In this document: one piece after another, positions 34,876-49,453 of the stretch
Layout of the letters: each line of letters begins with the position of its first letter
How positions within the stretch are numbered: position 1 is the first letter of the stretch
From: Verrucomicrobiia bacterium
GTDB taxonomy: Bacteria > Verrucomicrobiota > Verrucomicrobiia > Verrucomicrobiales > DEV007
Assembly (NCBI GenBank): GCA_030427505.1
Contig: JAUICH010000019.1
Coordinates: 1 to 64,000, forward strand
Direction: 5' to 3'
Length of the DNA stretch: 64,000 bases
Notes under the pieces: model-generated
What the model was told of the DNA's origin: nothing
What the model saw: the letters and a program-made list of their open reading frames with translations, nothing else
The model's database searches: none
Made by a program: the position numbers and the translations under genes

Positions 34876-35292
34876 CGGTCCACGCTAGAAGATGGCGGAG
34901 ACGCCGTCAAAGCCAGAGCGCGGTCTCAAGTCTCTCCCGCGGGTAGTGTGCTTGACATCCACGCCGTTCCGGGCGATCCATACTTGCAATGCTCATCAAG
35001 CACCCAACCGGAATCACTTGCTCCGCGACGCGGCCTTTCGCCGCTTCGTCACGGATGGGTTCCGCCTCTTTCGAGGTGCTGAAGCTGTCCATTTCCTGAG
35101 GCAGTCCGGCCCGTCACCCTTTGTTCTGGCGGCCTGAAGAAACCGAAGAAGGGCACCACTGCCCGCTTCCTTTCGCCGCACTGCCTGCCCCTACCCTGAC
35201 CACACGGGTCTGGCGTGCCGTCGCGTATGCCTGTCTCCGTGTCCTCAGCCCGGGTGGGCCGTGGGGCGCTATCCCAAAACCAAAAGCAAACC

Positions 35293-37434
35293 ATGAAAAC
35301 ACAAGAACGCACTCGCCAGAAATCCGGCCGCACTTATGATCCCGCGATCGTGAAGATGCGCAATATCGGTATCGTCGCCCACGTCGACGCCGGGAAGACC
35401 ACGCTCACCGAGCGGGTGCTTTTCTACACTGGCGCCATCCATCAAGTGGGAGACGTGAATGCCGGTAACACCACGACCGACTTCGATCCCATCGAGCAAC
35501 GCAAAGGCATTACCATCAATGCCGCCGCCATCTCGTGTACTTGGATCCGGACACCCGAGCCCGGCTCCGCGCCGGATCTGCCCTACCAGATCAGCATCAT
35601 CGACACGCCCGGCCATGTGGACTTCACCGCCGAGGTGGAGCGCACCATGCGCGTGCTGGACGGCGTCATCGCTGTGTTCAGCGGAGTCGATGGCGTGCAG
35701 CCGCAGTCGGAACGCGTCTGGCGTCAGGCCGAACGCTACGGCGTCCCGCGCCTGGCCTTCATCAACAAGATGGACCGCACCGGCGCGGACTTTGACGCCG
35801 CTCTGCAAGACCTGCGCGAAAAGCTCCAGGCCAACGCGGCCGCCATCCTGCTGCCCCTGGGCAGCGAGGACGGTCTCCGCGGCCAGCTGGACGTGCTCAA
35901 TCAACGGGCCATCCTGTTCGACGAACCGGACGGTTCACGCTACCGCTATGCCCCGGTTCCAGCCGAAGAACAGGCCCGCGTGGAAGCCGCGCGACAGGAT
36001 CTGGTCGACCGTCTCATCGATCTCGATGAAGACCTGGCTGAGGTGTATCTGCTCGATGGCACGCTCACGGCTGACCAGCTTCGTCAGGCCATCCGCCGGC
36101 AAACGCTGGCTCGTGCCTTCGTGCCCGTCGCTGCCGGGTCCGCGTTCAAGAACCTTGGCGTCCAGCCTCTGCTGGACGCGGTCGTCGACTATTTGCCGAG
36201 CCCTCTGGACGTGACGCCCGCTCCCGGGCGGCATCCCGAGACCGAAGAGTCCATCGCTGTTCGCTCAGCGCCGGACGCGCCCCTTCGTGCCCTGGTGTTC
36301 AAGATCGCTTCGGACGAATACTCTCGCCGCCGTGCCTTTGTGCGCGTTTACTCCGGCCGTCTCGTTTCGGGTGACGTGGTGCTCAATGCCACCACGGGGA
36401 AAACTCTGCGTCTTAGCCGACTGGTCAAACTCCAGGCGGACCAGGAGAGACGGATCGACTCCGCCGAAGCGGGCGAGATTGTTGCGCTGGTTGGCGCCAA
36501 GGGCGTCGTCACGGGTCATACCCTGTGTGCCCTAGACAGTCCCGTGCTTCTCGAGCCTCCCACGTTTCCGGATCCGGTCATCTCCATGGCCATCGAACCG
36601 AAAACCCGTGAGGACCGGGAACGACTGGGCTTTGCCCTGCAACAACTCGCCGAAGAGGACCCAACCTTCCAGGTCACCGTTAATCCGGAGACGGGGCAGA
36701 CCCTCATCGCCGGTATGGGCGAGCTTCACCTGGCGGTCCTGCGAGAGCGGATGTCCGAAAACTACCGCGTGGAAACCACCGCCGGTGAACCGAGAATCGC
36801 TTACCGCGAAACGGCGACACAAGCCGCGCGCGGGGAAGAGAAATACGTTCACCAGCGGGGTGGCCCCGGCATGTACGGTCATGTCGTGCTCGAGCTTCGC
36901 CCAGCGGAGCGCGGGACTGGCGTGGTCATCCAAGACCGCACGATAGGAGGCAGCATTCCCCGGCATTTCATTGGTGCCTGTCAAAAGGGCATCCATGAAG
37001 CCTTGGCAAACGGCGTGTTAGCAGGCTATCCGATTGTGGATGTGGCCATCGACATTGTTGATGGTTCCATACACGAGCAGGATTCCACCGAACGAGCCTT
37101 CGCCATCGCGGCTTCGCGAGCGCTGAAGGACGCCATGGGCCGTGCGGGTGCCGTGTTGCTGGAGCCCATCATGCGGGTGGAATGCATCACGCCGCCAGAA
37201 CACCAGGGCGACCTGGTGGGTGACCTTACCCGCCGGCGGGGACAGGTGCTGAACATGCGGGCCAGGGGTCTGACCTCGATCATTGAATCGCTGGTTCCTC
37301 TGGTTCGAATGTCCGGCTACGCCACGGTCATTCGGACGCTCTCCAAAGGGCGCGCCGAATTCTCCATGGAACCTTCCCACTTTGAGGAAGTGCCCGCCGC
37401 GCTCGCCGCGAAGGTAGTGGGAAGTCATTCCTAA
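35293..37434 (+). CDS. Elongation factor G paralog (EF-G-like translational GTPase)
   Basis: G1 AHVDAGKTT, DTPGH, NKMD motifs and full EF-G domain order (G, II, III, IV, V). Basic N-terminal extension. Not in an str operon context (no rpsL/rpsG/tuf neighbours). Start set at ATG 35293 (MKTQERTR). Confidence 0.85.
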   Translation: MKTQERTRQKSGRTYDPAIVKMRNIGIVAHVDAGKTTLTERVLFYTGAIHQVGDVNAGNTTTDFDPIEQRKGITINAAAISCTWIRTPEPGSAPDLPYQISIIDTPGHVDFTAEVERTMRVLDGVIAVFSGVDGVQPQSERVWRQAERYGVPRLAFINKMDRTGADFDAALQDLREKLQANAAAILLPLGSEDGLRGQLDVLNQRAILFDEPDGSRYRYAPVPAEEQARVEAARQDLVDRLIDLDEDLAEVYLLDGTLTADQLRQAIRRQTLARAFVPVAAGSAFKNLGVQPLLDAVVDYLPSPLDVTPAPGRHPETEESIAVRSAPDAPLRALVFKIASDEYSRRRAFVRVYSGRLVSGDVVLNATTGKTLRLSRLVKLQADQERRIDSAEAGEIVALVGAKGVVTGHTLCALDSPVLLEPPTFPDPVISMAIEPKTREDRERLGFALQQLAEEDPTFQVTVNPETGQTLIAGMGELHLAVLRERMSENYRVETTAGEPRIAYRETATQAARGEEKYVHQRGGPGMYGHVVLELRPAERGTGVVIQDRTIGGSIPRHFIGACQKGIHEALANGVLAGYPIVDVAIDIVDGSIHEQDSTERAFAIAASRALKDAMGRAGAVLLEPIMRVECITPPEHQGDLVGDLTRRRGQVLNMRARGLTSIIESLVPLVRMSGYATVIRTLSKGRAEFSMEPSHFEEVPAALAAKVVGSHS

Positions 37435-37583
37435 CTTCCTAACTCTCCTCAACCAAATCAGCCAGCCGGTTCACCCCGGCTGGCTGAATTCGTTTTCTAC
37501 GCCATGAGACAGCCGTCTCGTCTCACATGCTTGTAGCAATCGTGTCTATTGCGTTAGCCAATAGTCGAAGAATGCCAGCGCCA

Positions 37584-37763
37584 AGGTGGAACGCGATCTC
37601 CGAAGGCGTTCGCGAAAGCAGAGTGTGGCTGCATTTCACCTTTGTTTGGAAATCTAGCTTTCCTTTGCGAAATTTTCTCTTTCGCTCTCAGCGCGAATCA
37701 ATCACCGCTAAAGATTGCCCGCCCGGCCCGCGAGTTCCTCGCCCGGAGGTCGAGGACCACCTT
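37584..37763 (+). repeat. Intergenic repeat element copy A (module 1 at 37584-37656, module 2 at 37718-37763)
   Basis: Module 1 AAGGTGGAACGCGATCTCCGAAGGCGTTCGCGAAAGCAGAG…TTTGTTTGGAAATCT is near-identical to sequences at 41063 and 48634. Module 2 GCCCGGCCCGCGAGTTCCTCGCCCGGAGGTCGAGGACCACCTT recurs at 41224. Confidence 0.5.
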
Positions 37764-37913
37764 TTGCCATGGTGCGCCCGAACAAATCCTAGAGCTTGAC
37801 GCACATTATCCGGTTCAATCATCTAGCAGTAAGTGGGGAGGCTAAGACACGCATTCACGTCATGTAAGGTTTTCCGCTTCCGTTTCAGTGCGCTAAGCCT
37901 CAATCTCTCCCCC

Positions 37914-38879
37914 ATGAAATCCCCCCATTTCACGCTCTCCCTCCGTTCCCACTTCGGCGTCAGCCTTTGCCTGGCGTTCCTCATGCTTGCCGGCCTCCTC
38001 TCGCCACACACAAGAGCCGACGTGCTACCACCGAAACCGGACGCCAAACACCAGCCCATCTGGCCGGACCTCGCTCCGGGCGAAACGACCAAGGAAACCG
38101 GCACCGCGCTTCCTCCCAGAGAAGGCGAGACCAAGCCCATCACGCGCGTCGAGAACGTCACCTGCCCCACCTTTACGGTTCACCTCGCGCCCAAACCGAA
38201 CGGCGCCGCGATGGTCATCCTGCCGGGCGGAGGATTCAGCAAAGTGGTTCCCGACCTGGAAGGCACGGAGGCAGCGGACTGGCTGAACGAGCACGGCATT
38301 TCCGCCTTCGTTCTTTCCTACCGTACCACCTCAGCCCCCGGTGAGCCCGGCTGGCCCGAAGCGCTTCAGGATGCCCAACGCGCCATGGCGGTCATCCGCT
38401 CCCGCGCGGGGGAATGGGGGCTGAAGAAAGACCGCATCGGACTCTTGGGTTTTTCCGCCGGAGGTCAAGTCGCTGCCCGGCTGCTAAGCACGGGCGACTC
38501 CCTCACCTATGAGCCGGTGGACGAAATCGACCGGACCACCTCGCCCTACCCGGACTTCGCCATCCTCATCTATCCTTGGCGCATCTACGATGGCGCGAAA
38601 GACTCCCTCATCGACGGCGTCTCCGTCCCCCCGAATTGTCCGCCGACGTTTCTGGTCCACACCGGCGACGACAAATCCTCTTCCTTGGGCGCGGTGCTTT
38701 TTTATGCCGGTCTGAAAAAGCAGAACATCCCGGCTGAACTACACGTTTACGGAAACGGCGGACACGGCTACGGCTTACGCGAAAGGGAAGGCTCGGAGAT
38801 TTCCTCCTGGCCGGGCCACGCCGCTCATTGGCTGGTGCGCACGTTGGAGACAATGGACATGGCGGGGAAAAACCGGTAG
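37914..38879 (+). CDS. Alpha/beta hydrolase (esterase/lipase-like, secreted)
   Basis: Signal peptide. GFSAGG nucleophile elbow (G-x-S-x-G), downstream TGDDK…GGHGY typical of carbohydrate esterase/BD-FAE-like hydrolases. Confidence 0.7.
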   Translation: MKSPHFTLSLRSHFGVSLCLAFLMLAGLLSPHTRADVLPPKPDAKHQPIWPDLAPGETTKETGTALPPREGETKPITRVENVTCPTFTVHLAPKPNGAAMVILPGGGFSKVVPDLEGTEAADWLNEHGISAFVLSYRTTSAPGEPGWPEALQDAQRAMAVIRSRAGEWGLKKDRIGLLGFSAGGQVAARLLSTGDSLTYEPVDEIDRTTSPYPDFAILIYPWRIYDGAKDSLIDGVSVPPNCPPTFLVHTGDDKSSSLGAVLFYAGLKKQNIPAELHVYGNGGHGYGLREREGSEISSWPGHAAHWLVRTLETMDMAGKNR

Positions 38880-38896
38880 CTCACCTTCTGAGCTTT
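38880..38896 (+). terminator. Weak hairpin after hydrolase gene
   Basis: AGCTCA-CCTTC-TGAGCT followed by TT…; low confidence. Confidence 0.25.
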
Positions 38897-39029
38897 CCGC
38901 CATTCCTGGTTAACAAAGAAGAAATCCATAGTTTTTAAGAAATATATCATCGCAATGCTTGACTACTTTTAGAACTGTGGCTCATTGCCCGCCCCCCCGA
39001 TTTTATTCACCTCTACCGCTCCCCAGGCG

Positions 39030-39569
39030 ATGAACACAGTATTCCTATCGGGGTCTCAGGGCATCACGCACCTGAACGGCCAAGTCCGCTCCCGGCTGGA
39101 CGCTCTCTTGCAGAAGTCCGCCCACATCCTCATTGGTGACGCGAATGGCGTCGACCGCTCCATCCAGATGTACCTGGCCGGTAAAGGCTACCGGCAGGTC
39201 ACCGTCTATTGCTCCGGTTCTCAGTTCCGGAACAATGTGGGCTCCTGGAAGACCAAGCGCATTTCCGTTCCCTCCCACCTTCGTGGGCGGGACTTCTATA
39301 CCCGCAAGGACAAGGCCATGGCGGAGGACGCGGATCGCGGCTTCGTTATTTGGGACGGCTCCAGCGCGGGTTCCATCGAGAACGTGCTGGAACTCCTGAA
39401 ACGCGGAAAGAAGGCCACGGTCTATCTGGAACCCAAGGATCAGTTCTTCCTCGTCAATAGCGTGGAACCGCTGAAGCTCCTCCTTTCCAACGTATCTGGC
39501 GGCGCCATGGCCGCCATCGAACGAAAGGTGGGCCTGAGCGACGCGCTGAAAGCGCTTCAATCCAGCTGA
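39030..39569 (+). CDS. Hypothetical protein, possible SLOG/DprA-LOG-like Rossmann fold
   Basis: About 180 aa. VFLSGSQ…ILIGDANGVDRSIQMYLAGKG…VTVYCSG…FVIWDGSSAGS resembles the GxxRGxD-type nucleotide-binding SLOG superfamily (DprA/LOG/YpsA). Family assignment is from memory only. AT-rich region upstream. Confidence 0.35.
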   Translation: MNTVFLSGSQGITHLNGQVRSRLDALLQKSAHILIGDANGVDRSIQMYLAGKGYRQVTVYCSGSQFRNNVGSWKTKRISVPSHLRGRDFYTRKDKAMAEDADRGFVIWDGSSAGSIENVLELLKRGKKATVYLEPKDQFFLVNSVEPLKLLLSNVSGGAMAAIERKVGLSDALKALQSS

Positions 39570-39637
39570 GCAGCGCAGCGGGACGGGGCGGGATCGAGTC
39601 CCTTGATGGAGAATCGGCCCGCTCCTAAGATGGGAGC

Positions 39638-41020
39638 ATGACGAATTTCCGAAGCCCCCGCTCCGACTTCTGGATCTCCTTCCTGGTGCTGTTGGCCGTC
39701 GCGGTTTCAATAGTGGCCTGCAAGCTTGTGGCAGCGCCCACCGGCACGGAACGCCCTAACATGGTTCTCATCCTGGCGGACGACCTGGGCTATGGCTCCC
39801 TGGGCTGTTACGGCAGCACGGCGGTGAAGACCCCTAACATTGACGCCCTTGCCGCGGACGGGATGCGCTTCACCGATTTCCACAGCAATGGCGCCCTCTG
39901 CACGCCCACCCGCGCCGCGCTGCTCACGGGCCGCTACCAGCAGCGGGCGGCCTGGGTGGATGACGCGCTCCTGTCTCCGGAATTTCGCGAACAACGCGCC
40001 GCCAATCTGAAACAACGCTGGGCCTGGGGCCTGGCGCTGGATGAGCTGACCGTGGCTGACGTCCTCCGCTCCGCCGGTTACCGAACCGCGCTGTTTGGAA
40101 AGTGGCACCAGGGCTACGACCACCGCTTTCATCCCATGGAGCAAGGCTTCGACGAATTCCGCGGCTTCATCGGTGGCGCGGTGGACTACCACACCCACGT
40201 CGGCCATCACGGCCTGAAGGAACTGGACTGGTGGAAGGACAGGAAAATCCACAACGAGCCCGGCTACACCACGGACCTGCTGGCAGGTTACGCGGTGGAC
40301 TTCATCCGCCGCCAAGGGGACGCGGGCCAGCCTTTCTTTTGCTACATCACTCACGGCGCGCCCCACGGTCCCTGGCAAGGCCGCGACCCGGACTCCACGA
40401 GACCGGAAGTGGAGATCTACCGGGAGATCATCGAAGTCCTCGACGAGTCCGTCGGCCGGGTGCGGGACGCCGTCCGGGAAAGAGGACTCGAAGCTAACAC
40501 ACTCTTCATCTTCTGCTCCGACAACGGTCCCGATGCGCCAAAGGATTTCCCCTCCCCAAACGGACCGCTTCAGGGAAAGAAGGGCAAGCTCTTGGAAGGC
40601 GGCCACCGGGAACCCTGCCTCGCCGTCTGGCCGGGCGTCATTCCGGCGGGCACGGTCTGTGATGAGACGGTCATGATGATGGACTTGCTGCCTACCTTCG
40701 CCGCCCTCGCGGGTGTGGAGAATGCCATCCCAGAGGAACGGGAAATCGATGGGGTAAACCTTCTGCCCTTATTGAAAGGTGAAAAAACCGAACTCTCTGA
40801 TCGAGTGCTGCACTGGGAGCAAGGCGGCCTCTGGGCCGTGCGAGAGGGTCCCTGGAAACTCATGGGGAAGGAGGAAGAAGCTCAGACCCTGGTGAACTTG
40901 GACGAGGACCTCGGCGAGACCACTAACCTCCTTGCCGAAAAGCCAGAACTGGCTGAAAAGCTGCACACCCTGCACCGCGCGTGGGCGGAAGACGTGGGTA
41001 TGGGCGAACCACCGAAGTGA
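39638..41020 (+). CDS. Sulfatase (arylsulfatase family)
   Basis: 460 aa. LILADDLGYGSLGCYGS and CTPTRAALLTGRY (C-x-P-x-R). Confidence 0.85.
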   Translation: MTNFRSPRSDFWISFLVLLAVAVSIVACKLVAAPTGTERPNMVLILADDLGYGSLGCYGSTAVKTPNIDALAADGMRFTDFHSNGALCTPTRAALLTGRYQQRAAWVDDALLSPEFREQRAANLKQRWAWGLALDELTVADVLRSAGYRTALFGKWHQGYDHRFHPMEQGFDEFRGFIGGAVDYHTHVGHHGLKELDWWKDRKIHNEPGYTTDLLAGYAVDFIRRQGDAGQPFFCYITHGAPHGPWQGRDPDSTRPEVEIYREIIEVLDESVGRVRDAVRERGLEANTLFIFCSDNGPDAPKDFPSPNGPLQGKKGKLLEGGHREPCLAVWPGVIPAGTVCDETVMMMDLLPTFAALAGVENAIPEEREIDGVNLLPLLKGEKTELSDRVLHWEQGGLWAVREGPWKLMGKEEEAQTLVNLDEDLGETTNLLAEKPELAEKLHTLHRAWAEDVGMGEPPK

Positions 41021-41062
41021 AACTCAAGCTGGGATAGCCATTCCCATAGGTCATTAAGCGAT

Positions 41063-41266
41063 CCCACTCGTAAAGGTGGAACGCGATCTTCGAGGGCGTT
41101 CGCGAAAAGCACAGCAAGTCAGCTTTCCTTCCTTGTTAGGACATTGAACCCACCCTGCCCCCGCAGTCCTGCCTGTTTGATTCACGCATTTGAGCAAACC
41201 AGAGCGCCGTCGAAAACACTGGTGCCCGGTTCCCGAGTTCCTCGCCCGGAGGTCGAGGACCACCTT
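41063..41266 (+). repeat. Intergenic repeat element copy B (module 1 at 41063-41137, module 2 at 41224-41266)
   Basis: AAGGTGGAACGCGATCTTCGAGGGCGTTCGCGAAAAGCACAG…CCTTGTTAGGACATTG and GCCCGGTTCCCGAGTTCCTCGCCCGGAGGTCGAGGACCACCTT. See copy A. Confidence 0.5.
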
Positions 41267-41320
41267 CCTCCATTCGCGTCGCGGGCGACACCGATAATGA
41301 TACTGAGTCCCATTCTTTAG

Positions 41321-41339
41321 AATTAGAATAGTTCTAATT
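41321..41339. promoter_or_regulatory. Perfect 8-3-8 inverted repeat AATTAGAA-TAG-TTCTAATT upstream of the P-type ATPase (candidate operator)
   Basis: Read directly from the sequence. It lies in an AT-rich stretch about 47 nt upstream of the ATPase start codon. Confidence 0.4.
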
Positions 41340-41385
41340 TAGATTGATTCCGGCGGAAAACTGCACACGTTGATGCCGCAATCCC

Positions 41386-43716
41386 GTGTCTCAGTCACCC
41401 GTCATCCCCAAAAGTTCCTCTACTGGAGCGGACTCCGTCCGGCGCCAGCCGTCCCCTACCGGCTCAACCTCTCCAGAGTGGGTCGCCCGTCTCACGGACT
41501 TTCTTTCCGGAGAAAAACAGGTGGAAGCCATTCTCGTCGATGCCCAGACACACCGGGTGTCCGTGGCTACCTTGGGCAAGGTGGACGAGACGCGCCTGAA
41601 GGAAAAGCTGGATGCCGTGCTCCGCACCCTGGACGAGACGGTCTTCTCCACCCCGCCCACCGCTGGCGCAGGCGGCGGAGGCACCGGGATCATCCAGGTC
41701 CGGCAGTTGCCCCACGAAACGCTGCTGGAAAAACCGTCCTGCCCCACGGCCCCTCTCTTCTGGAAATGGCGGGAATTCGCTTGGCCGGAAGCCGACGAGT
41801 TGGAGGCCCAGACGCAGGAAGAATGGAAAGCCATGGCCTGGCAGGCAGGCATCTGTGGAGTGTCCCTCGTCGGCGCCTGGGCCCTCGCGAAAACCGGTAC
41901 CGGACCGGCATGGTTACCCATTGCGTTTTACTCCGTCTCTCTGCTGTCCGGCGGCTGGGACGCGGCCATCGATACCTGGGCAAAGTTGCGCCAGGGCCAG
42001 TTGGACATTCACTTCCTCATGCTGGCCGTGGCGGCGGGTGCCGTAGCCATCGGCGCCTGGGCGGAGGGCGCGCTGCTCTTGTTCCTCTTCTCGCTGTCCG
42101 GCGCTCTCGAGCACTACGCCCTGCACCGCACCCACCGGGAGATCAATGCCCTCACCAAAGCCTCGCCCAAGACCGCGCGTGTGGTGTTGCCTTCCGGAGA
42201 AACGGAAACCCGCGCCGTGGCCCTCCTTGAGCCGGGCGACCTTATCATTGTTAAACCCGATGAGACCTTCCCCGTGGACGGCGAAATCCTGGAGGGCAAG
42301 ACCGCCGCGGACGAGTCCAACCTGACCGGCGAATCCCACCCCGTGCCAAAGGAAGTGGGCGATAAAGTCTTTAGCGGCACGCTGAATGAATGGGGCCTGG
42401 TGCGGGTAGAGGTCACCCGCCTGGCTTCGGAAAGCGCCCTCCAGAAAATCATCGCTCTCATCCAGCAAGCCCAGCATCTGAAGGCGCCCAGCCAACGCTT
42501 CACCGATCGCTTCGGCACGCACTACACCTACGTCATCTTGAGCGTTACGCTCATCATGTTCCTGGTCTGGTGGCTGGTACTGAAGGTACCGCCCTTTGAA
42601 AACACGGAAGCCACCGGCTTCTCCGCCTTTTACCGCGCCATGACCCTGCTGGTGGTGGCCAGCCCCTGCGCGCTGGTGCTGTCCATCCCCTCCGCCATCC
42701 TGGCGGCCATCGCCTGGGGCGCGAAGCACGGCATTCTCTTTCGCGGTGGCGCAGCCATCGAGAAACTGGCGGAGGTGGACGCCGTGGCGCTGGACAAGAC
42801 CGGCACCCTGACCACCGGCGAACTGACGGTGCACGCCGTCGAAAGCTTTCCCGAAGGCCGCGAAGACGACGTGGCGGCCATCGCCTACACCCTGGAATCC
42901 CAGTCGAACCACCCCATCGCCCGCGCCATCACGGAGTATGGGAAAAAGCACGGCCTGGCGTCCCGCGATCTGGATGAATTTCAGTCCCTCTCCGGCAAGG
43001 GTCTGCGGGGCAAGGTAGACGAAAAAGTCTGCTACCTGGGCCGGCGCGAGTTGATGGAATCTGGCGCTCTGAAAGACTTCATCGCCCAGGCGCCCGAGCC
43101 TCCCGTGGAGTTCGCCGAGGTGTGGGTGGTGCACGAAGACCTCATCGGCCGCGTGCTCCTGAAAGATCAGATCCGCCAGGAAAGCAAAGGCGTCCTGGCC
43201 GCGTTAAAAGCCAGCGGCGTCACCACCATCATGCTCACCGGCGACCGGCGCGGCGCGGCGGAAAAGGTGGCCCACGAACTGGGCGTGGACGACGTCCGCG
43301 CCGGGCTGCACCCCGAAGACAAAGTCAAAGCCATCCAGGAACTTGCTGAAGCCGGTCACAAGGTCGCCATGGTCGGCGATGGCGTGAACGATGCCCCCAG
43401 CCTGGCCGCCGCCTACGTCTCCGTCGCCATGGGCGGCAAAGGCAGCGACGCCGCCCTCGAACAAAGCGACGTGGTCCTGATGAAAGACCGCATCGAAAAA
43501 CTCCTCACTGCCCGCTCCCTCAGCCTCTCCGCCCGCCACGTCATCCACCAAAACCTCGCCATCTCCCTCGGCACCGTGCTCCTGATGGTCAGCCTGGCGC
43601 TACTGGGGAACGTGCATCTCACCCTGGGCGTTATGGCCCACGAAGGCAGCACGGTGCTGGTGTGCTTGAATAGCTTGCGGTTGTTATTTGGGCGGGAAAA
43701 ATCACCCGCAAACTAA
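41386..43716 (+). CDS. Heavy-metal translocating P1B-type ATPase (P1B-4-like, Co2+/Zn2+/Cd2+; SPC motif, no N-terminal HMA domain)
   Basis: DKTGTLT phosphorylation site, TGDRRGAAEKVA, GDGVNDAP hinge, TM6 SPC motif (VVASPCALVLSIP). No CxxC metal-binding domain at the N-terminus. Confidence 0.85.
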   Translation: MSQSPVIPKSSSTGADSVRRQPSPTGSTSPEWVARLTDFLSGEKQVEAILVDAQTHRVSVATLGKVDETRLKEKLDAVLRTLDETVFSTPPTAGAGGGGTGIIQVRQLPHETLLEKPSCPTAPLFWKWREFAWPEADELEAQTQEEWKAMAWQAGICGVSLVGAWALAKTGTGPAWLPIAFYSVSLLSGGWDAAIDTWAKLRQGQLDIHFLMLAVAAGAVAIGAWAEGALLLFLFSLSGALEHYALHRTHREINALTKASPKTARVVLPSGETETRAVALLEPGDLIIVKPDETFPVDGEILEGKTAADESNLTGESHPVPKEVGDKVFSGTLNEWGLVRVEVTRLASESALQKIIALIQQAQHLKAPSQRFTDRFGTHYTYVILSVTLIMFLVWWLVLKVPPFENTEATGFSAFYRAMTLLVVASPCALVLSIPSAILAAIAWGAKHGILFRGGAAIEKLAEVDAVALDKTGTLTTGELTVHAVESFPEGREDDVAAIAYTLESQSNHPIARAITEYGKKHGLASRDLDEFQSLSGKGLRGKVDEKVCYLGRRELMESGALKDFIAQAPEPPVEFAEVWVVHEDLIGRVLLKDQIRQESKGVLAALKASGVTTIMLTGDRRGAAEKVAHELGVDDVRAGLHPEDKVKAIQELAEAGHKVAMVGDGVNDAPSLAAAYVSVAMGGKGSDAALEQSDVVLMKDRIEKLLTARSLSLSARHVIHQNLAISLGTVLLMVSLALLGNVHLTLGVMAHEGSTVLVCLNSLRLLFGREKSPAN

Positions 43717-43858
43717 CCTGCGGATCTTCACAAGTATTCGTGGCGAGACATCGAGAAGCCAGTACCGGCATGCTGCGGCGGTGAACTGGCAAAAAAAGAA
43801 ACACAAGCAGGGCCATGGTTATGGCCTTCATTCATCGATTCTGGTGTAAAACCGTTCG

Positions 43859-44164
43859 TCACTCCTTCCAAGTGGCGTCACGCTTTTTCCAATAGCCAGG
43901 CTTTCTGCTCTGGTGCATCACGGCAATGATCCGGACGGTGTCTCCCTTGATTTCATAGATCAATTGGTAGGAAAACCGGCGAGTCGCGACCTTGCGATAG
44001 GGGGAATCAAATTGACGAGCACGTTCCGGTTCCTCCGCGATTAGCCGAGCCGCCGCCATGGCTTCATCTATAAACTCCTCTCCCAGCCCTGGCTGCCGTT
44101 GCTCGTAAAAAATCGCTGCATCCACCATTTCCCGCTCCGTGGCGGGATGCCAGATCAAAGTCAT
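43859..44164 (-). CDS. Type II toxin, RelE/ParE family
   Basis: About 101 aa. …FSYQLIYEIKGDTVRIIAVMHQSRKPGYW is typical of the ParE/RelE fold. Tightly coupled to the upstream antitoxin gene (antitoxin stop TGA overlaps an alternative GTG start at 44173). Confidence 0.7.
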   Translation of the reverse strand: MTLIWHPATEREMVDAAIFYEQRQPGLGEEFIDEAMAAARLIAEEPERARQFDSPYRKVATRRFSYQLIYEIKGDTVRIIAVMHQSRKPGYWKKRDATWKE

Positions 44165-44169
44165 GCGAC

Positions 44170-44424
44170 TCACTCCGGTGATGTCACATGGCGGAACTTC
44201 TCACGGACGCGCGACATCATCTCTTCATGGGAGACTCCCTCCACTCTACCTTCATCCAGGTCCCGGCTACGTCGATCCAACTCAGCTTTCCATTCCGGAT
44301 CGAGAGGACCATCATTTTCGAGTCGTTCGATCTCCGCCTTGATCACCTGAAACTCATCCCAAGGGATCTGGGCAGCCACGGGCTTTCCCTCCGCGTCAGT
44401 GACAATCTGGTGAGTGATGGTCAT
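44170..44424 (-). CDS. Antitoxin (putative addiction-module component, partner of the RelE/ParE-type toxin)
   Basis: 84 aa, acidic. …EWKAELDRRSRDLDEGRVEGVSHEEMMSRVREKF matches the CHP02574-like antitoxin family found upstream of RelE/ParE toxins. Confidence 0.6.
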   Translation of the reverse strand: MTITHQIVTDAEGKPVAAQIPWDEFQVIKAEIERLENDGPLDPEWKAELDRRSRDLDEGRVEGVSHEEMMSRVREKFRHVTSPE

Positions 44425-44587
44425 TCTCTGAAGCTACTCCATCGATGAATTTCTTTCCAGTCGCTTTGCAGAGTGCGAAATGAGCCAAATTCGCCACGGA
44501 GTGGCCGGACCGCGCTTTCAGGTCAGGCAACGATCTCCTCTAAGGAAAGAACTCGTTGGGTACGACAGAGAAAGAAACGCTTCGCCG

Positions 44588-47227
44588 TTACTCAAACGTA
44601 ATCGCCGCCGGCGCCGGCAGCTTCACACGGCTTTCGCGGGCGGAGGGCATTTCCAGGGCCGGGAAACCTTCCGCGGATTGGGACTCGGAGTCATCGGAAG
44701 TTGAAGCCTCTGGCGAAGTTTCGTCTCCGTCTCCATCGACACTGCCGGCTTGCTGCCCCGATTCTTCTTCATCTCCGCTTGAGGCGAAACTTTCGTCCGG
44801 GGACGGCCCCTTGGGTTTTGGGCTGGCGATGTTTACCACGCGGGCCCGGATGACGGGGGTAACCGCATTGTAAGGATCGTCTCCCAGGATGGTGGGTCCC
44901 ACCGGCAGGACGGGGGCGGAGTTGGCCACCCGGGCGCGGAGGGGGGAAGACGTCATGTTCATCGACAGGAGATTTTCCACCGGTGCGGGTCCAATGGCGC
45001 CGGGGAGCGGCTCGCCAGAATGGATGGTGCAGATGCGGGTGATCGGCGTGTCGGGGCGGACGTATTCCACGTAGGCCGTGGCCCTTCTTTCGGTGGGCAT
45101 CCCGGGGCCATCGGACACGTTCTCAAAGCAGGCGTCCGTGGCCAGACCACCGGAGATCTTGCACAGCTTCACCTTCTGCGCGCCCTCTGGCGGGGCGAAT
45201 GCCTCGGGCGGATAGATCTCCGCGGCGGCGTTCATTGCGTCCACCCAGATGGGCAGGACGGTGGTATTACTGAAGGCGCCTTTGTAGATGGTCTTCGGCG
45301 TATCAAAGCCCGCCCACACGGCGCAGGTGACCCGGTCGGTAAAGCCGACGAACCAGTTGTCCGTGTAGGCGTATTCCGTGCCGGTTTTACCCGCCACGGG
45401 GAAATCTTTCAGTCCGTATTCGGTGTAGGCCTTCCGGCCGGTGCCTTCCTTCAAGGCGTCTTCCAGACAACTGGTGATCTGGTAGGCCGTGACGGTATCG
45501 ACAATGCTCTCTTCCTTGAAGTCCAGGTGTTCCCCCTCGGGGATGGATTTGCCTTGCCCGTCTTCGATCCGGGAAATGATGAAGGTTTCGCGCGGGCGGC
45601 TGCCACCATTCGGAAAGACGGTGTAGGCCAGGCACATCTCGCTCAAGGTTGCCTCGCTACGACCGAGCAGCGTGGCGTTGTAGTTCTTGATATCGCTCAG
45701 GAAATGGATGCCGGCATTCTGCGCCAGCCCGACCACATTGGACAGTCCCGCGGAAATCCCCAGGCGCACGGTGGCGGCGATCTTCGACTGCGTGAGAGCC
45801 CGCCGGGCACTGATGGAGCCTTCGTGGAAGTCCTTGGCCAGGGTCTCCACGCCCCACTCTCCAAGAATACCGCTCATGCCGCCGATCATGACGCGGCGGT
45901 TGTCGATCGGGGAATCGTCCACTTCGGTGCCCGGGAAGTCGCCCTGCTGAAAGGCCGCGGCATAGACGAAAGGAAGGAAAGCCGTGCCAGGAGGCCGGCG
46001 GGCCATCGTAGTGCGGTCGAACATGCTGTCGGAGAAATCCCGTCCACCCACGGACGCGAGGATGGCGCCGGACCGGTTGTCGATCAGCAGGAGCGCCCCC
46101 TGGAGGTATTCCGGCGCGGGCGGAGACTTGTCCGCCGGCTGGCTCGTCTTACTCCACTCTTCTTTGAGCGTTTTGTATTCCTTAATCGTCTGGTGCTTGT
46201 ACCCCGTGACAGACTCCTCCACCACGGCGAGATGGGTCTTGATGCTGTTTTCCGCCAGCTTTTGCAGGTGGTTGTCGATGGTGGTGTAGATGCGGAAGCC
46301 CCCTTCGTAAGCCCGTTCGTAGCCCAGCAAGTCTATGACCTTCTGGCGCACCTGCTCGTAAACGTAGTTGCTGCGATTGGCGCGGTTCTGTTTCGGGACG
46401 GTATGAAGCGGTTCCCCGGAGAGCTTCAGCACCTGGTCGTAGCCGATCTTGCTCTCTTCATACATCCGCCGGAAGATGAAGTTCCGGGTCTTCAGAGAGC
46501 CTTCGGGATTGTTGAAGGGAGAAAGGCGATTCGGGCTCTTGATCAACCCACAGAGGGTGGCGCTGTCGGCGACGGTCAGTTCGCTGGTCGTCTTGCCGAA
46601 ATAGCCTTCCGCCGCCGCCTCGATTCCGTAGAAGCCGCTCCCGAAATAAATGCGGTTGAAGTACAGTTCCAGGATCTCTTCCTTCTTGAAGCGTTCCTCC
46701 AGCCGCGCCGCCAGGAAGGCCTCCACGAGTTTTCGCTCCAGGGTACGTTCCCGCAGTTCGAAGGCATTCCGGGCCAGCTGCTGGGTAATAGTACTGGCGC
46801 CCTGGGTAACCTCTCCCGCCTGGAGGTTCAGGACAACCGCGCGGGCGATGCCTTGGTAGTCCACCCCCCGGTGCTCGAAAAAGCGGGAGTCCTCCGCCGA
46901 GGTCAGAGCATCCACGAGATGCTGCGGAATCTCCGCGTAGGTGATGGGCTGCCGGTTCTGGACATATATGCGGCCGATTTCTTCCCCGTTCCGGTCGTAA
47001 ATGAGGCTGGCCTTCTCCAGCTTGTAAACGTCGTTCAGGTCGAAGAGCGCGGCCTTTTCCTTGAACTGCCCCAAGTAGAACAGGACGCAGACGCCCCCCA
47101 TGGCCACAAACACCATGAAAATGCCGGACAAGATGGCCAGCCATTTCGCCACTCTCACCCAGGCCTTCCGGTTCCGCCGGTGGACGCGAGGCTCGAGAAA
47201 CAGGGATCGGGAGACTTCGTCAGGCAC
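44588..47227 (-). CDS. Penicillin-binding protein 1A (bifunctional glycosyltransferase/transpeptidase, class A PBP) with low-complexity C-terminal tail
   Basis: N-terminal TM anchor. GT51 motifs (EDSRFFEHRGVD, GASTITQQLARN, RKLVEAFLAARLE). Transpeptidase STxK (GTAFLPF…SASV.. region) and KTGT motif (AGKTGTEYAYTDNWFVGF). Ser/Asp/Glu-rich tail. Confidence 0.85.
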   Translation of the reverse strand: MPDEVSRSLFLEPRVHRRNRKAWVRVAKWLAILSGIFMVFVAMGGVCVLFYLGQFKEKAALFDLNDVYKLEKASLIYDRNGEEIGRIYVQNRQPITYAEIPQHLVDALTSAEDSRFFEHRGVDYQGIARAVVLNLQAGEVTQGASTITQQLARNAFELRERTLERKLVEAFLAARLEERFKKEEILELYFNRIYFGSGFYGIEAAAEGYFGKTTSELTVADSATLCGLIKSPNRLSPFNNPEGSLKTRNFIFRRMYEESKIGYDQVLKLSGEPLHTVPKQNRANRSNYVYEQVRQKVIDLLGYERAYEGGFRIYTTIDNHLQKLAENSIKTHLAVVEESVTGYKHQTIKEYKTLKEEWSKTSQPADKSPPAPEYLQGALLLIDNRSGAILASVGGRDFSDSMFDRTTMARRPPGTAFLPFVYAAAFQQGDFPGTEVDDSPIDNRRVMIGGMSGILGEWGVETLAKDFHEGSISARRALTQSKIAATVRLGISAGLSNVVGLAQNAGIHFLSDIKNYNATLLGRSEATLSEMCLAYTVFPNGGSRPRETFIISRIEDGQGKSIPEGEHLDFKEESIVDTVTAYQITSCLEDALKEGTGRKAYTEYGLKDFPVAGKTGTEYAYTDNWFVGFTDRVTCAVWAGFDTPKTIYKGAFSNTTVLPIWVDAMNAAAEIYPPEAFAPPEGAQKVKLCKISGGLATDACFENVSDGPGMPTERRATAYVEYVRPDTPITRICTIHSGEPLPGAIGPAPVENLLSMNMTSSPLRARVANSAPVLPVGPTILGDDPYNAVTPVIRARVVNIASPKPKGPSPDESFASSGDEEESGQQAGSVDGDGDETSPEASTSDDSESQSAEGFPALEMPSARESRVKLPAPAAITFE

Positions 47228-47424
47228 GATTTGATTGGGAGAAATTGAGATCCGTCGCCAGATAAGAAAGCCGAATACCCGCAGCTTGAGGCAGTTGATT
47301 TCCAGGTTCTAAGTTCATCCTGCGCAAGCGTCCGGGATCCGTTTCGATAATCCGTTTAAACTAAGGCCGGGCAATATGCGGTGCAACCCGCCTCAGAGCA
47401 AGTATCTGTCGGGTCTGGAAGATC

Positions 47425-48597
47425 ATGGAAGGAAATCACAGCCAAACGTTAGAGGACCTTATCAAAGGGAAAATACGGGCGCAGGGAGGCCTTTCTTTCC
47501 CGGAATTCATGGAACTCGCGCTCTATGAGCCAGAGTATGGCTATTACAGCCGCACCCCGGCCATCGGGCGGCGGGAGGGCGATTTCTACACCAGCGTCAG
47601 CGTGGGACCGGTCTTTGGAATCTTGCTAGGCTACGCCCTGGAAGCCCAGTGGCGGCGCGATGGCGCCCCGGAAGACGGCTACTGGATTCTCGAACAAGGC
47701 GCGCACGACGGCCAGCTGGCGCTGGACATTCTGGATGGACTAGCCCAGCGGAACAGCCCCCTTCACGGTGTGCTCCGCTACGGCATCCTCGAAAGCCGTG
47801 CGCCCCAACGGACGTTGCTGGGGAAGCGGTTGGGCGAAAAGAACGTCACCCTTTTCGACTCCGTGGACGCTTTCATCCACGCCAATGGCAGCGGCGGTCA
47901 CCACGGCCTCTTTCTCTGCAACGAACTTGTGGACGCCTTCCCGGCTGCCCGGGTGCGTTTTAACGCGGACCAGGGCGAATGGGAGGAGCTGTATGTGGTG
48001 GAGGCTGCCGGGAAAGGGGCACTCGAAACAGAAACAAATGCCGTAGAGTCTCCATTCGTCTGGGAAACCCGCTCCCTGGAGACAAATGCCGCCCTGCGCG
48101 CCTGGGCGGAGAAAAAATTGGGCCCGGATTTTCCGGACGGCTACGTCACGGAGATCTGCCTGGCGGCCCGCGACTGGGTGCGGGAAATCGCCGGCCTCTT
48201 CGGCGGCCGGGGCGCGTGGTGGATCATCGACTACGGGATGGGGGTGGACGACTACCTGGCGCCGGAACGGCGGGACGGCACGCTGCGCTGCTACCGGGAT
48301 CACCGGGCCACGGACGATCCTTTTTCTGGCCTGGGTGAGACGGACATCACCACCCATGTCAATTTCACCTGGCTGGCGGAATGGGCGGAGGAAGCCGGGC
48401 TCAAAGCCACGCCTCTGGCGGATCAACACACCTTTCTGACCCGTGCCGCCATGCCCTGGCTTCAAGCGCTGGAACAAACCAGCGGCGCAACCGGTCTGAC
48501 CCAGGAGCAAAGCGCCCTGGTCCGCCAGTTCCAGACCCTCACCCATCCCGGCATGATGGGCCGGGTGTTCAAGGTGCTGGTGCTAGAGCGGCCTTAG
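47425..48597 (+). CDS. Class I SAM-dependent methyltransferase, MidA/NDUFAF7 (DUF185) family
   Basis: 390 aa. LSFPEFMELALYEPEYGYYS and …GPVFG… motifs characteristic of the MidA family. Confidence 0.7.
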   Translation: MEGNHSQTLEDLIKGKIRAQGGLSFPEFMELALYEPEYGYYSRTPAIGRREGDFYTSVSVGPVFGILLGYALEAQWRRDGAPEDGYWILEQGAHDGQLALDILDGLAQRNSPLHGVLRYGILESRAPQRTLLGKRLGEKNVTLFDSVDAFIHANGSGGHHGLFLCNELVDAFPAARVRFNADQGEWEELYVVEAAGKGALETETNAVESPFVWETRSLETNAALRAWAEKKLGPDFPDGYVTEICLAARDWVREIAGLFGGRGAWWIIDYGMGVDDYLAPERRDGTLRCYRDHRATDDPFSGLGETDITTHVNFTWLAEWAEEAGLKATPLADQHTFLTRAAMPWLQALEQTSGATGLTQEQSALVRQFQTLTHPGMMGRVFKVLVLERP

Positions 48598-48633
48598 AAT
48601 AAAGGGTACCATCTCCTAACGGCGTCGCGAAGC

Positions 48634-48707
48634 AAAGGTCGGACGCGATCTCCGAGCACGTTCGCGAAAGCAGAATAAGGTGTCTTTTCATCCCTGTTTG
48701 GACATCT
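48634..48707 (+). repeat. Intergenic repeat element copy C (module 1 only)
   Basis: AAAGGTCGGACGCGATCTCCGAGCACGTTCGCGAAAGCAGAAT…CCCTGTTTGGACATCT. It lies 37 nt downstream of the MidA stop. Confidence 0.45.
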
Positions 48708-48809
48708 CAACTACCGTTAGCCAGTCTGCCCCGTTCACGCCATTTGCATACCGGCCGCCACCATCAATACGGGAGTGCGGCCCGCGCGACGAAATGCCAG
48801 TACGCCCGT

Positions 48810-49298
48810 TTACTCCCCAATCTTGACGCTCGGCCCTTCAGGCTCGCCCTTGAGTTGCCAAATCTCCACCTGCCCATCAGCTCGCCCGGCGATCACATAG
48901 AAGTCGTCTCGATATTCCATCGGGACGCCAGAAATGAAGACGAGTTGTGGCGCAGTTGTTTCCACCGCCGTCATTGCGGGAACATAGGTAAAGGCTGCCC
49001 TGTCGCTTCCCAGGTTTCCGTACAAAAGGAGTGACTCCCCTTCTTCTCGAGAGATGTAGCCCGGAACCAATACGCGCAGTTCCGGTGGGAACGCACCATC
49101 GTGATCTCCAGCATAGCTCTGGCACGCGAGGATGAGCTGCCGGACATTGTTCCTATAGATCGTGAGCGGATTCCGGTCGGCTGTCCGGGTATAGCTTGGT
49201 AATAGCAACACCACCATCAGCGCCACGGTTGCAACCATGAGAACCAGCGTCCAAACAATCTTTTTGCGCAGGGATCTTAGGCCCGGGTCCGTCTCCAT
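48810..49298 (-). CDS. Hypothetical membrane-anchored protein
   Basis: Single N-terminal TM (IVWTLVLMVATVALMVVLLL). No recognisable family. Start is uncertain (49298 or 49337). Confidence 0.3.
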   Translation of the reverse strand: METDPGLRSLRKKIVWTLVLMVATVALMVVLLLPSYTRTADRNPLTIYRNNVRQLILACQSYAGDHDGAFPPELRVLVPGYISREEGESLLLYGNLGSDRAAFTYVPAMTAVETTAPQLVFISGVPMEYRDDFYVIAGRADGQVEIWQLKGEPEGPSVKIGE

Positions 49299-49453
49299 CA
49301 TGTTTGCATTCCAACTCCTGAAGCCAAGACCTACCACGCCGGGAAAGCCTTGGCCACTTCAAGCGGAGAGAGAATGTCCGGAGACCGAAGGGGTCTCCTC
49401 GCCGCCGGCAGGGGCGAAACTCCTAACATGCTTCCTTTGTCGTTAATACTGCC

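What the first reader, a model, noticed from the sequence alone, without database searches (positions are those of the whole stretch)
37584..48707. Family of conserved about 75-nt intergenic repeats (three copies) with an internal hairpin, plus a second about 45-nt module in two copies
Near-identical modules start at 37584, 41063 and 48634: AAGGT[GC]G[AG]ACGCGATCT[CT]CGA[AG]G[GC][CG]GTTCGCGAAA(A)GCA[GC]A, then about 10 variable nt, then TT[TC]C[ACT][TC][TC]TGTT[TA]GGA[AC]AT. Each contains a GAACGC…GCGTTC stem and the palindrome TTCGCGAA. A second module GCCCGG[CT][CT]CCGAGTTCCTCGCCCGGAGGTCGAGGACCACCTT occurs 60-85 nt downstream in copies A (37718) and B (41224) only. All copies sit shortly downstream of plus-strand genes (EF-G paralog, sulfatase, MidA). 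Copies A and B are also upstream of the hydrolase and the Co/Zn ATPase. Copy A is covered by a 90-aa ORF in the track, but copy B has an indel (AAAG versus AAAAG) that breaks that frame, which argues for a non-coding element. It could be a REP-like element, a small-RNA gene family, or a transcription-attenuation signal.
Basis: seen in the sequence. Interest (0 to 1): 0.6.

Follow-up and report, generated by a model that had tools for sequence, protein, structure and literature searches.

The report
Small inverted-repeat intergenic repeat element
The two "modules" are the left and right ends of one non-coding repeat of about 185 bases with complementary ends, present as two complete copies and one cut-off copy in an uncultured Verrucomicrobiales genome; it most resembles a miniature transposon relic, and nothing here shows a regulatory role.

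Summary
The repeats are real. Module 1 occurs three times (starts 37583, 41073, 48635, + strand) and module 2 twice (37721, 41224). No further copy exists in the 64-kb window.

The first 20 nt of module 1 (AAGGTGGAACGCGATCTCCG) are the reverse complement of the last 20 nt of module 2 (CGGAGGTCGAGGACCACCTT). A (37583-37763, 181 nt) and B (41073-41266, 194 nt) are therefore single units with terminal inverted repeats. C is cut off at its 3' end, keeping only the first ~10 nt of module 2.

Similarity starts and stops sharply at these termini. The ends are 84-100% identical, while the interior and flanks sit at background (49-61%).

- Every reading frame is broken in at least one copy.
- Rfam gives no hit.
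- Module 1 alone folds no better than shuffled sequence.
- No promoter, terminator or conserved upstream sequence was found.
- Core-pattern scans of 185,579 species genomes, JGI metagenomes and viral contigs gave only chance hits inside genes.

Best reading (~0.45): a lineage-restricted MITE-like element. No target-site duplication or parent IS was found, and the genome-wide copy number could not be measured. A structured RNA remains possible (~0.25). Interest is modest.

The parts
37583..37763 (+). Element A, complete copy, 181 nt. Lies between the terminator of the EF-G paralog and the alpha/beta-hydrolase gene.
   Evidence: Inverted arms 37583-37602 and 37744-37763 (20 nt, 80% complementary). 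The MFE pairs the two ends on both strands.
37583..37655 (+). Module 1 of A. Left inverted repeat 37583-37614; weak hairpin with variable loop 37615-37639; conserved CU-rich/TGTTTGGAAAT stretch 37640-37655.
   Evidence: Left inverted repeat is 94% identical to B and 84% to C.
37721..37770 (+). Module 2 of A. Right inverted repeat; the pairing part is about 37728-37763.
   Evidence: The 32-nt core is 100% identical to B.
41073..41266 (+). Element B, complete copy, 194 nt. Lies between the sulfatase gene and the promoter region of the P-type ATPase.
   Evidence: Inverted arms 41073-41092 and 41247-41266 (75% complementary).
41224..41273 (+). Module 2 of B (right inverted repeat).
   Evidence: Logan contigs from two independent runs end inside it, at 41254 and 41239.
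48635..48790 (+). Element C, 3'-truncated copy. It holds module 1 (48635-48707), an interior weakly like that of B, and the first ~10 nt of module 2 (CGGCCCGCG, 48781-48790). It then runs into the 3' end of the convergent ORF 48810-49337(-).
   Evidence: B interior versus post-C reached by 26 of 500 shuffles; no inverted repeat; no module-2 hit.

Best explanation
A, B and C are copies of one lineage-restricted, non-coding, MITE-like repeat of about 180-195 nt. It is a small non-autonomous element bounded by imperfect terminal inverted repeats (AAGGTGGAACGCGATCTCCG ... CGGAGGTCGAGGACCACCTT).

Inferred mechanism: a transposase encoded elsewhere in the genome recognises the two ends and moved or copied the element into intergenic DNA. 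Only the ends are needed in cis, so they stay conserved while the interior drifts or is replaced. Copy C lost its right end in a later rearrangement and is immobile.

Where a copy is read through from the upstream gene, the RNA would fold its two ends into a long imperfect helix. That could affect 3'-end stability or processing, as described for other bacterial MITEs. This last step is inference only.

Shown here: the repeat, its boundaries, the inverted termini, the lack of coding capacity, and the truncation of C. Inferred: mobility, the transposase, and any RNA-level effect.
For: - Similarity among copies begins and ends abruptly at the inverted termini. Flanks are at background: up/down 40 nt are 52-60% identical by gapped global alignment, and local alignments of the flanks are not significant.
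- Terminal inverted repeats are detected independently in A and B. With gaps the complementarity extends to about 26 nt (6 of 500 shuffles for A).
- The ends are far better conserved than the interior. The left inverted repeat is 84-94% identical and the module-2 core is 100% over 32 nt. The interior is 49-61%, which equals background. A 32-nt perfect run next to unalignable sequence excludes neutral decay of an old duplication.
- The size is 181/194 nt, the location is intergenic, and every frame is broken in at least one copy.
- One copy is truncated at one end.
- The termini carry AAGGTG, and B's right end carries GGAAGGTG, at the same terminal position as the verified IS5 ends GGAAGGTGCGAA. 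This is a weak resemblance only.
- k=31 Logan contigs from two runs end 2-9 nt short of where copies A and B alone would force a branch. I infer that at least one more module-2-bearing sequence exists in those samples.
- No Rfam family matches and there are no RNA-gene signals.
Against: - No target-site duplication flanks A or B (read).
- Only three copies are seen, all in one orientation and within 11 kb. For three uniformly placed points in 64 kb, p is about 0.08.
- No transposase or recombinase gene lies between 23 and 58 kb of the window.
- The inverted repeat is imperfect. B alone is not significant under DNA scoring (109 of 500).
- The left conserved block (75 nt) is much longer than the inverted repeat.
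- The A and B interiors are unalignable despite near-identical ends.
- The core pattern was absent from 185,579 species genomes, JGI metagenomes and IMG/VR except for chance hits in coding regions. No parent IS or wider family was seen.
- The rest of this genome could not be searched.
Confidence: 0.45

Rival explanations
1. A family of structured RNAs of about 190 nt (sibling sRNAs or cis-acting RNA elements) transcribed from the + strand. The 5' and 3' ends form a closing helix of 20-30 bp that competes with local hairpins in each module (GAACGC/GCGTTC and CCUCG/CGAGG). This gives two alternative states. A conserved CU-rich single-stranded stretch (YCYYUGUUWGGAMAU) could act as a seed.
For: - Conserved blocks are separated by an interior of variable length and sequence.
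- The only difference between A and B inside the 20-nt terminal helix is C to U opposite G, which keeps pairing on the + strand only.
- All three copies are co-directional with the flanking + strand genes.
- Full-length A folds better than shuffles (z -2.8).
Against: - Module 1 alone has z of -0.4, +0.3 and -0.8, and the three copies give inconsistent MFE folds.
- Full-length B has z of -1.3, and the minus strands fold about as well.
- The RNAalifold consensus is only -12 kcal/mol with 2 compensatory pairs among 3 sequences.
- There is no promoter-like site, no terminator-like site shared by the copies, and no conserved upstream sequence of the kind sibling sRNAs usually share.
- No Rfam hit appears even at E<=10.
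- Copy C lacks the 3' partner yet keeps module 1.
Confidence: 0.25
2. DNA sites bound by a host protein, either a regulator or a site-specific recombinase. The left and right inverted repeats, with the palindromes TTCGCGAA and GCnTTCGCGAAnGC, would be recognised as double-stranded DNA. They would control the neighbouring genes or mark segment boundaries.
For: - Sequence conservation is strong while structure is weak.
- A perfect 8-bp palindrome is present in all three copies.
- A and B end at similar distances (151 and 120 nt) before the next + strand start codon.
- The three direct copies bracket two gene blocks.
Against: - The conserved blocks of 75 and 45 nt are much longer than typical operators.
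- The spacing between the two inverted arms differs by 13 bp between A and B, so it is not helically phased.
- B's 1-nt insertion falls inside the extended palindrome.
- The downstream genes are unrelated (hydrolase, metal ATPase), and the ATPase has its own operator-like palindrome.
- No recombinase gene is nearby, and the blocks contain core genes (PBP1A, MidA) whose pairing is conserved in relatives.
- The ECF-type reading fails: GGAAC-N14-CGTT has the wrong spacing, and AAC is not conserved in C.
Confidence: 0.15
3. Neutral remnants of a local segmental duplication, or an assembly artefact.
For: Only three copies are seen, clustered within 11 kb and in one orientation.
Against: - A 32-nt perfect match and a 94% identical left inverted repeat lie next to an interior and flanks at background identity. 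This is incompatible with uniform neutral decay.
- The flanking genes are not paralogous.
- Independent assemblies from two sequencing runs reproduce the sequence at 100% identity on both sides.
Confidence: 0.05

Closest known systems
Bacterial MITEs such as Correia/NEMIS elements (Neisseria), ERIC/IRU (enterobacteria) and RUP (S. pneumoniae). Properties are from established knowledge and the reviews PMC10969869 and PMC3184786, which turned up but were not read.
   Same: Non-coding, 100-200 nt, intergenic, bounded by imperfect terminal inverted repeats. Copies can be truncated. They can fold into a long hairpin if transcribed.
   Different: No target-site duplication. No known cognate transposase. 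Only three clustered copies are seen. The interiors of two copies are unrelated although their ends are near-identical.
Pneumococcal BOX elements (modular boxA-boxB-boxC repeats)
   Same: Modular build. Conserved left and right modules have complementary ends, and a middle part varies between copies.
   Different: No sequence similarity. The middle part here is not a repeated boxB-type unit. The copy number is unknown.
IS5-family insertion sequences (terminal repeats GGAAGGTGCGAAYAAG, verified on an E. coli IS5)
   Same: The termini of the element carry AAGGTG(G)GAAC on the left and (GG)AAGGTG on the right, at the very ends.
   Different: Only 6-11 nt match. Local-alignment shuffles reach the score in 6-14 of 300 at best. 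There is no 4-bp YTAR-type duplication and no transposase gene. The resemblance may be chance.
Integron attC sites / CALIN arrays
   Same: Direct-oriented imperfect palindromic repeats lying just downstream of genes.
   Different: The RYYYAAC / GTTRRRY core sites are not at the boundaries. The 'cassettes' hold 3-5 genes on both strands, including core genes. No integrase is present in the window.

Membership tests
MITE (miniature inverted-repeat transposable element) | Terminal inverted repeats at both ends | tested here: met
   20-nt arms, 80% (A) and 75% (B) complementary, located exactly at the limits of similarity; extends to about 26 nt with one gap.
MITE (miniature inverted-repeat transposable element) | Direct target-site duplication flanking the termini | tested here: not met
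   Flanks read: GCGCC|...|TTGCC for A and TCGTA|...|CCTCC for B. No 2-9-nt duplication appears at any plausible terminus. It may have decayed.
MITE (miniature inverted-repeat transposable element) | Small size and no coding capacity | tested here: met
   181 and 194 nt. Six-frame translation shows a stop or frameshift in at least one copy for every frame. The 90-aa ORF has no Pfam hit and no protein hit.
MITE (miniature inverted-repeat transposable element) | Many dispersed copies in the genome | tested here: inconclusive
   Three copies in 64 kb, all within 11 kb. Logan contig ends hint at further copies.
MITE (miniature inverted-repeat transposable element) | An autonomous IS with matching termini in the same genome | not testable with these tools
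   No transposase between 23 and 58 kb of the window.
REP/BIME (REPIN) elements | Imperfect GC-rich palindromes of 20-40 nt, often as inverted doublets, with a RAYT transposase | tested here: not met
   The unit is about 185 nt. The local hairpins are weak. No RAYT-like gene was seen in the window region examined.
Integron attC | R'' RYYYAAC at the 5' boundary and R' GTTRRRY at the 3' boundary, with single-gene cassettes | tested here: not met
   The 5' end reads AAGGTGGAAC (GTGGAAC is RYRRAAC) and the 3' end reads GACCACCTT. The blocks between copies hold 3 and 5 genes.
Any Rfam 15 RNA family (6S, riboswitches, sRNAs, leaders) | Covariance-model score at or near the gathering threshold | tested here: not met
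   0 hits at gathering score in the whole window. Nothing overlaps the elements in any meaningful way at E<=10.
Independent sRNA gene (sibling sRNAs) | Own promoter and intrinsic terminator, with conserved upstream region among paralogs | tested here: inconclusive
   No sigma-70-like site around the copies. The only terminator-like sites touching or adjoining a copy are two weak 5-pair minus-strand stems, one inside module 1 of C (48655-48639) and one 27 nt upstream of B (41046-41030), with no equivalent in the other copies. Upstream 60 nt are not similar. Promoter types in this lineage are poorly known.
IS5-family-derived element | GGAAGGTGCGAA-type termini and a 4-bp (YTAR) target duplication | tested here: inconclusive
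   The termini share 6-11 nt with verified IS5 ends. The duplication is absent.
ECF sigma-factor promoter | GGAAC -35 and CGT(T/C) -10 with a spacer of about 16-17 nt (from established knowledge) | tested here: not met
   The spacer is 14 nt. The -35 reads CGGAC in copy C.

The most novel reading that the evidence does not exclude
The element is a previously undescribed class of structured RNA of about 190 nt in an uncultured Verrucomicrobiales lineage. Its 5' and 3' conserved modules can either form local hairpins or pair with each other in a closing helix of 20-30 bp. This would make it a two-state switch or a sibling-sRNA family with a CU-rich seed, acting on neighbouring or distant genes.
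Probability: 0.2. Interest if true: 0.6.

Novelty: new member of a known kind. Interest (0 to 1): 0.3.

Why it matters
If the MITE-like reading holds, this is routine genome furniture. It would be a lineage-specific mobile repeat, useful as an assembly-break marker and strain marker, and a pointer to an active or extinct IS in a poorly known Verrucomicrobiales lineage.

It would matter more if the conserved ends prove to be under host-level selection, as RNA or as protein-binding DNA. Almost nothing is known about non-coding regulators in this phylum.

The practical gain here is the corrected anatomy. There is one element with paired ends plus a truncated copy. That tells anyone who follows up exactly what to search the full genome with.

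Tried and rejected
- **Rfam.** Whole window at gathering score, and each copy at E<=10. Nothing relevant.
- **Core-pattern scans.** GTDB species genomes, JGI metagenomes and IMG/VR gave 2, 7 and 0 stretches. All lie inside long stop-free frames with no extended similarity, except L005 (stop-free stretch only 243 nt, at a contig end), which I read by eye as XdhC-like coding, so all are taken as chance hits. Module 2 and the left-terminus pattern in viral contigs gave 0.
- **blastn of element A against plasmids and phages.** Only short chance matches.
- **Protein search with the 90-aa ORF**, hoping to catch other copies miscalled as genes. Nothing.
- **Coding on either strand.** A minus-strand reading (…PN K..SAFANA.GDRVPP…) looked tempting. 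A has an in-frame stop, B has a frameshift and C has several stops, and amino-acid identity is no higher than expected from nucleotide identity.
- **Comparative genomics.** The nearest relatives are too distant: PBP1A 55% and hydrolase 74% identity. Five loci from relatives carry no element, and synteny is lost apart from the MidA-PBP1A pair.
- **Extending beyond the window through Logan contigs.** Five look-ups failed: four returned 'not on record' and one returned a contig that lies entirely inside the window.
- **Other readings rejected by inspection.** An ECF promoter, a sigma-54 promoter, attC, Tn3-type 38-bp repeats, IS200/605-type subterminal hairpins, 6S RNA, a retron ncRNA and a tandem-island att site. 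Each was considered and set aside because it lacked the defining sequence features or the partner gene.
- **Literature search** for Verrucomicrobia intergenic repeats or MITEs. Nothing specific.
Full report
**Observation**

Reading the three places and aligning them confirms the repeat. The 27-nt core ACGCGATCTYCGARNNCGTTCGCGAAA occurs three times on the + strand, at 37591, 41081 and 48643. It occurs in none of 100 dinucleotide shuffles. The 32-nt module-2 core occurs twice without mismatch, at 37732 and 41235.

The repeat finder gives the same families. Profile searches with nhmmer --max find no further copy of either module on either strand of the 64-kb window. Module 1 starts at 37583, 41073 (not 41063) and 48635. 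Module 2 starts at 37721 and 41224.

**Anatomy**

The first 20 nt of module 1 (AAGGTGGAACGCGATCTCCG) are the reverse complement of the last 20 nt of module 2 (CGGAGGTCGAGGACCACCTT). The repeat finder reports this independently in A and in B:
- A: arms 37583-37602 and 37744-37763, 80% complementary.
- B: arms 41073-41092 and 41247-41266, 75% complementary.

With a 2-nt gap the complementarity runs to about 26 nt. In the RNA fold of A it runs to about 30 pairs.

So A (37583-37763, 181 nt) and B (41073-41266, 194 nt) are single units with inverted termini.

Copy C has no inverted partner. Its sequence after module 1 is weakly similar to the interior of B (reached by 26 of 500 shuffles). At the expected distance it carries CGGCCCGCG, the start of module 2 as in A. 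It then diverges into the 3' end of the convergent ORF 48810-49337(-). C is therefore a 3'-truncated copy.

**Conservation profile**

| Segment | Identity between copies |
|---|---|
| Left inverted repeat (32 nt) | 84-94% |
| CU-rich/TGTTWGGAMAT stretch | 69-81% |
| Interior | 49-61% |
| Module-2 core (A versus B) | 100% over 32 nt |
| Flanks (background for this gapped alignment) | 52-60% |

The flanks are also not significantly similar by local alignment. Similarity therefore begins and ends at the inverted termini, and the ends are selectively maintained or recently derived. A 32-nt perfect run beside unalignable sequence rules out uniform neutral decay of an old duplication.

**Not coding**

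Six-frame translation shows a stop or a frameshift in at least one copy in every frame. One minus-strand frame gives similar peptides in A and C. It is interrupted in A, shifted in B and preceded by stops in C. Its amino-acid identity is what 78% nucleotide identity predicts. The 90-aa ORF over A has no Pfam match and no hit in the protein collection.

**RNA evidence is weak**

Rfam gives nothing at gathering score for the window. At E<=10 it gives nothing for copies A and C and only a weak, irrelevant partial match (E 4.3) over the end of B.

| Sequence folded | z-score against shuffles |
|---|---|
| Module 1 alone (three copies) | -0.4, +0.3, -0.8 |
| Full-length A, + / - strand | -2.8 / -2.3 |
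| Full-length B, + / - strand | -1.3 / -1.4 |

The three copies of module 1 give different MFE folds. The signal in the full-length folds is essentially the terminal helix. RNAalifold on three sequences gives -12 kcal/mol with two compensatory pairs.

The consensus scans find no promoter-like site around the copies. They find only two weak 5-pair minus-strand terminator-like stems, one inside module 1 of C and one just upstream of B, which do not recur in the other copies. Copy A lies after a canonical terminator at 37458-37487.

Copy B lies upstream of a promoter/operator-like site of the ATPase gene. That site reads TTTAGA-N18-TAGATT with an 8-bp perfect inverted repeat in the spacer, at 41316-41345 (read). 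B is therefore unlikely to be that gene's leader.

Points in favour of RNA:
- The one A/B difference inside the terminal helix is C to U opposite G.
- B's extra A can be drawn as a bulge in a hairpin whose loop is the variable stretch.

**Distribution**

Exact-pattern scans with the conserved core returned only chance hits:
- 2 stretches in 185,579 species genomes.
- 7 stretches in JGI metagenomes.
- None in IMG/VR.

No hit shows similarity beyond the pattern. Eight of the nine lie inside stop-free frames of 936-3510 nt. The ninth, L005, sits at a contig end where the stop-free stretch is only 243 nt; I read it by eye as XdhC-like coding. Plasmid and phage collections gave only short chance matches.

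The organism is an uncultured Verrucomicrobiales bacterium. Its nearest homologs are annotated as Verrucomicrobiae or Verrucomicrobiales MAGs, and they are distant: hydrolase 74% and PBP1A 55% identity. One of the runs that contains it, SRR24442553, is cited in a biofloc aquaculture metagenome paper (PMC10582022).

Loci from relatives keep the divergent MidA-PBP1A pair but not the flanks, and none carries the element. The rest of this genome could not be reached.

Logan contigs (which I take to be k=31 assemblies) from two independent runs match the window at 100% identity and end inside module 2, at 37739, 41254 and 41239. These ends are 2-9 nt short of where copies A and B alone would force a branch. 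I infer that at least one more sequence sharing 30-mers with module 2 exists in those samples. This is a hint, not a count.

**Interpretation**

The following together fit a MITE-like non-autonomous element best (confidence about 0.45):
- sharp boundaries at inverted termini;
- small size and non-coding nature;
- intergenic location;
- ends conserved over the interior;
- one truncated copy.

The termini also begin with AAGGTG (GGAAGGTG at B's right end). I verified that this matches the start of the IS5 terminal repeats on an E. coli IS5 copy. The match is only 6-11 nt and may be chance.

Against the MITE reading:
- no target-site duplication;
- no transposase in the window;
- only three co-oriented, clustered copies;
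- an asymmetric left block of 75 nt;
- unrelated interiors in A and B.

Rivals:
- A structured RNA family with a closing helix that competes with local hairpins (about 0.25).
- Protein-bound DNA sites (about 0.15).
- Neutral duplication remnants or an artefact (about 0.05), disfavoured by the block pattern and by the independent assemblies.

I considered attC, REP/BIME, ECF and sigma-54 promoters, Tn3-type repeats, IS200/605 ends, 6S RNA and retron ncRNA. Each was rejected on a defining feature it lacks.

**Verdict**

The most likely identity is an ordinary kind of thing, a lineage-specific miniature inverted-repeat element with one decayed copy. It has no database relatives and no demonstrated function. 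The decisive test is a search of the full genome with the element and its termini, which these tools could not run. Interest is modest (0.3).

Noticed in passing
window 37458-37487: Strong intrinsic-terminator-like hairpin (12 pairs, 9 G-C, then ATTCGTTTTC), 24 nt after the stop of the EF-G paralog (35215-37434) and 96 nt before element A. It also scores on the minus strand.
   Followed up: partly
window 41316-41345: Upstream of the P-type metal ATPase (41386-43716): -35-like TTTAGA and -10-like TAGATT separated by 18 nt. The spacer holds a perfect 8-bp inverted repeat, AATTAGAA-TAG-TTCTAATT (41321-41339). It looks like a metal-regulator operator inside its promoter. The consensus scan did not flag it (8 of 12 matches).
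   Followed up: partly
window 43859-44424 (- strand): A RelB-like/Unstab_antitox antitoxin (44170-44424) and a ParE toxin (43859-44173) form a type II toxin-antitoxin pair between the ATPase and PBP1A genes. Relatives have other genes at this position.
   Followed up: partly
window 37739, 41254 and 41239 (ends of L003 and L011): Logan contigs (which I take to be k=31 assemblies) from runs ERR3428547 and SRR24442553 are 100% identical to the window and end inside module 2, a few nt short of where two copies alone would cause a branch. This suggests further module-2 copies or variants in those samples.
   Followed up: partly
window 20569-20683 and 20914-21028: A 115-nt direct repeat, 75% identical, spaced 345 nt (a multiple of 3), inside the minus-strand ORF 20351-21145. 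Probably an internal protein repeat.
   Followed up: no
window 44588-48597; L013 8345-12420; L015 8789-12655: The divergent gene pair MidA-like methyltransferase (PF02636) and class A PBP (transglycosylase plus transpeptidase) is conserved in distant Verrucomicrobiales relatives. Everything around it differs.
   Followed up: partly
window 33217-34875 (-) and 39638-41020 (+): Two sulfatase genes lie within 7 kb. There are two conserved-looking ORFs without Pfam hits: 39030-39569 (179 aa) and 48810-49337(-), which is called as 163 aa in the Logan contig.
   Followed up: no
L006 3331-3355, L007 2197-2221, L005 1705-1729: The 21-base core pattern recurs by chance inside conserved coding motifs of unrelated genes. 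In L006/L007 it encodes ...SRDLRRRSRM... in a pseudouridine-synthase-like ORF, and in L005 it falls in an XdhC-like ORF. This is a reminder that GC-rich palindromic cores give coding false positives in very large scans.
   Followed up: yes
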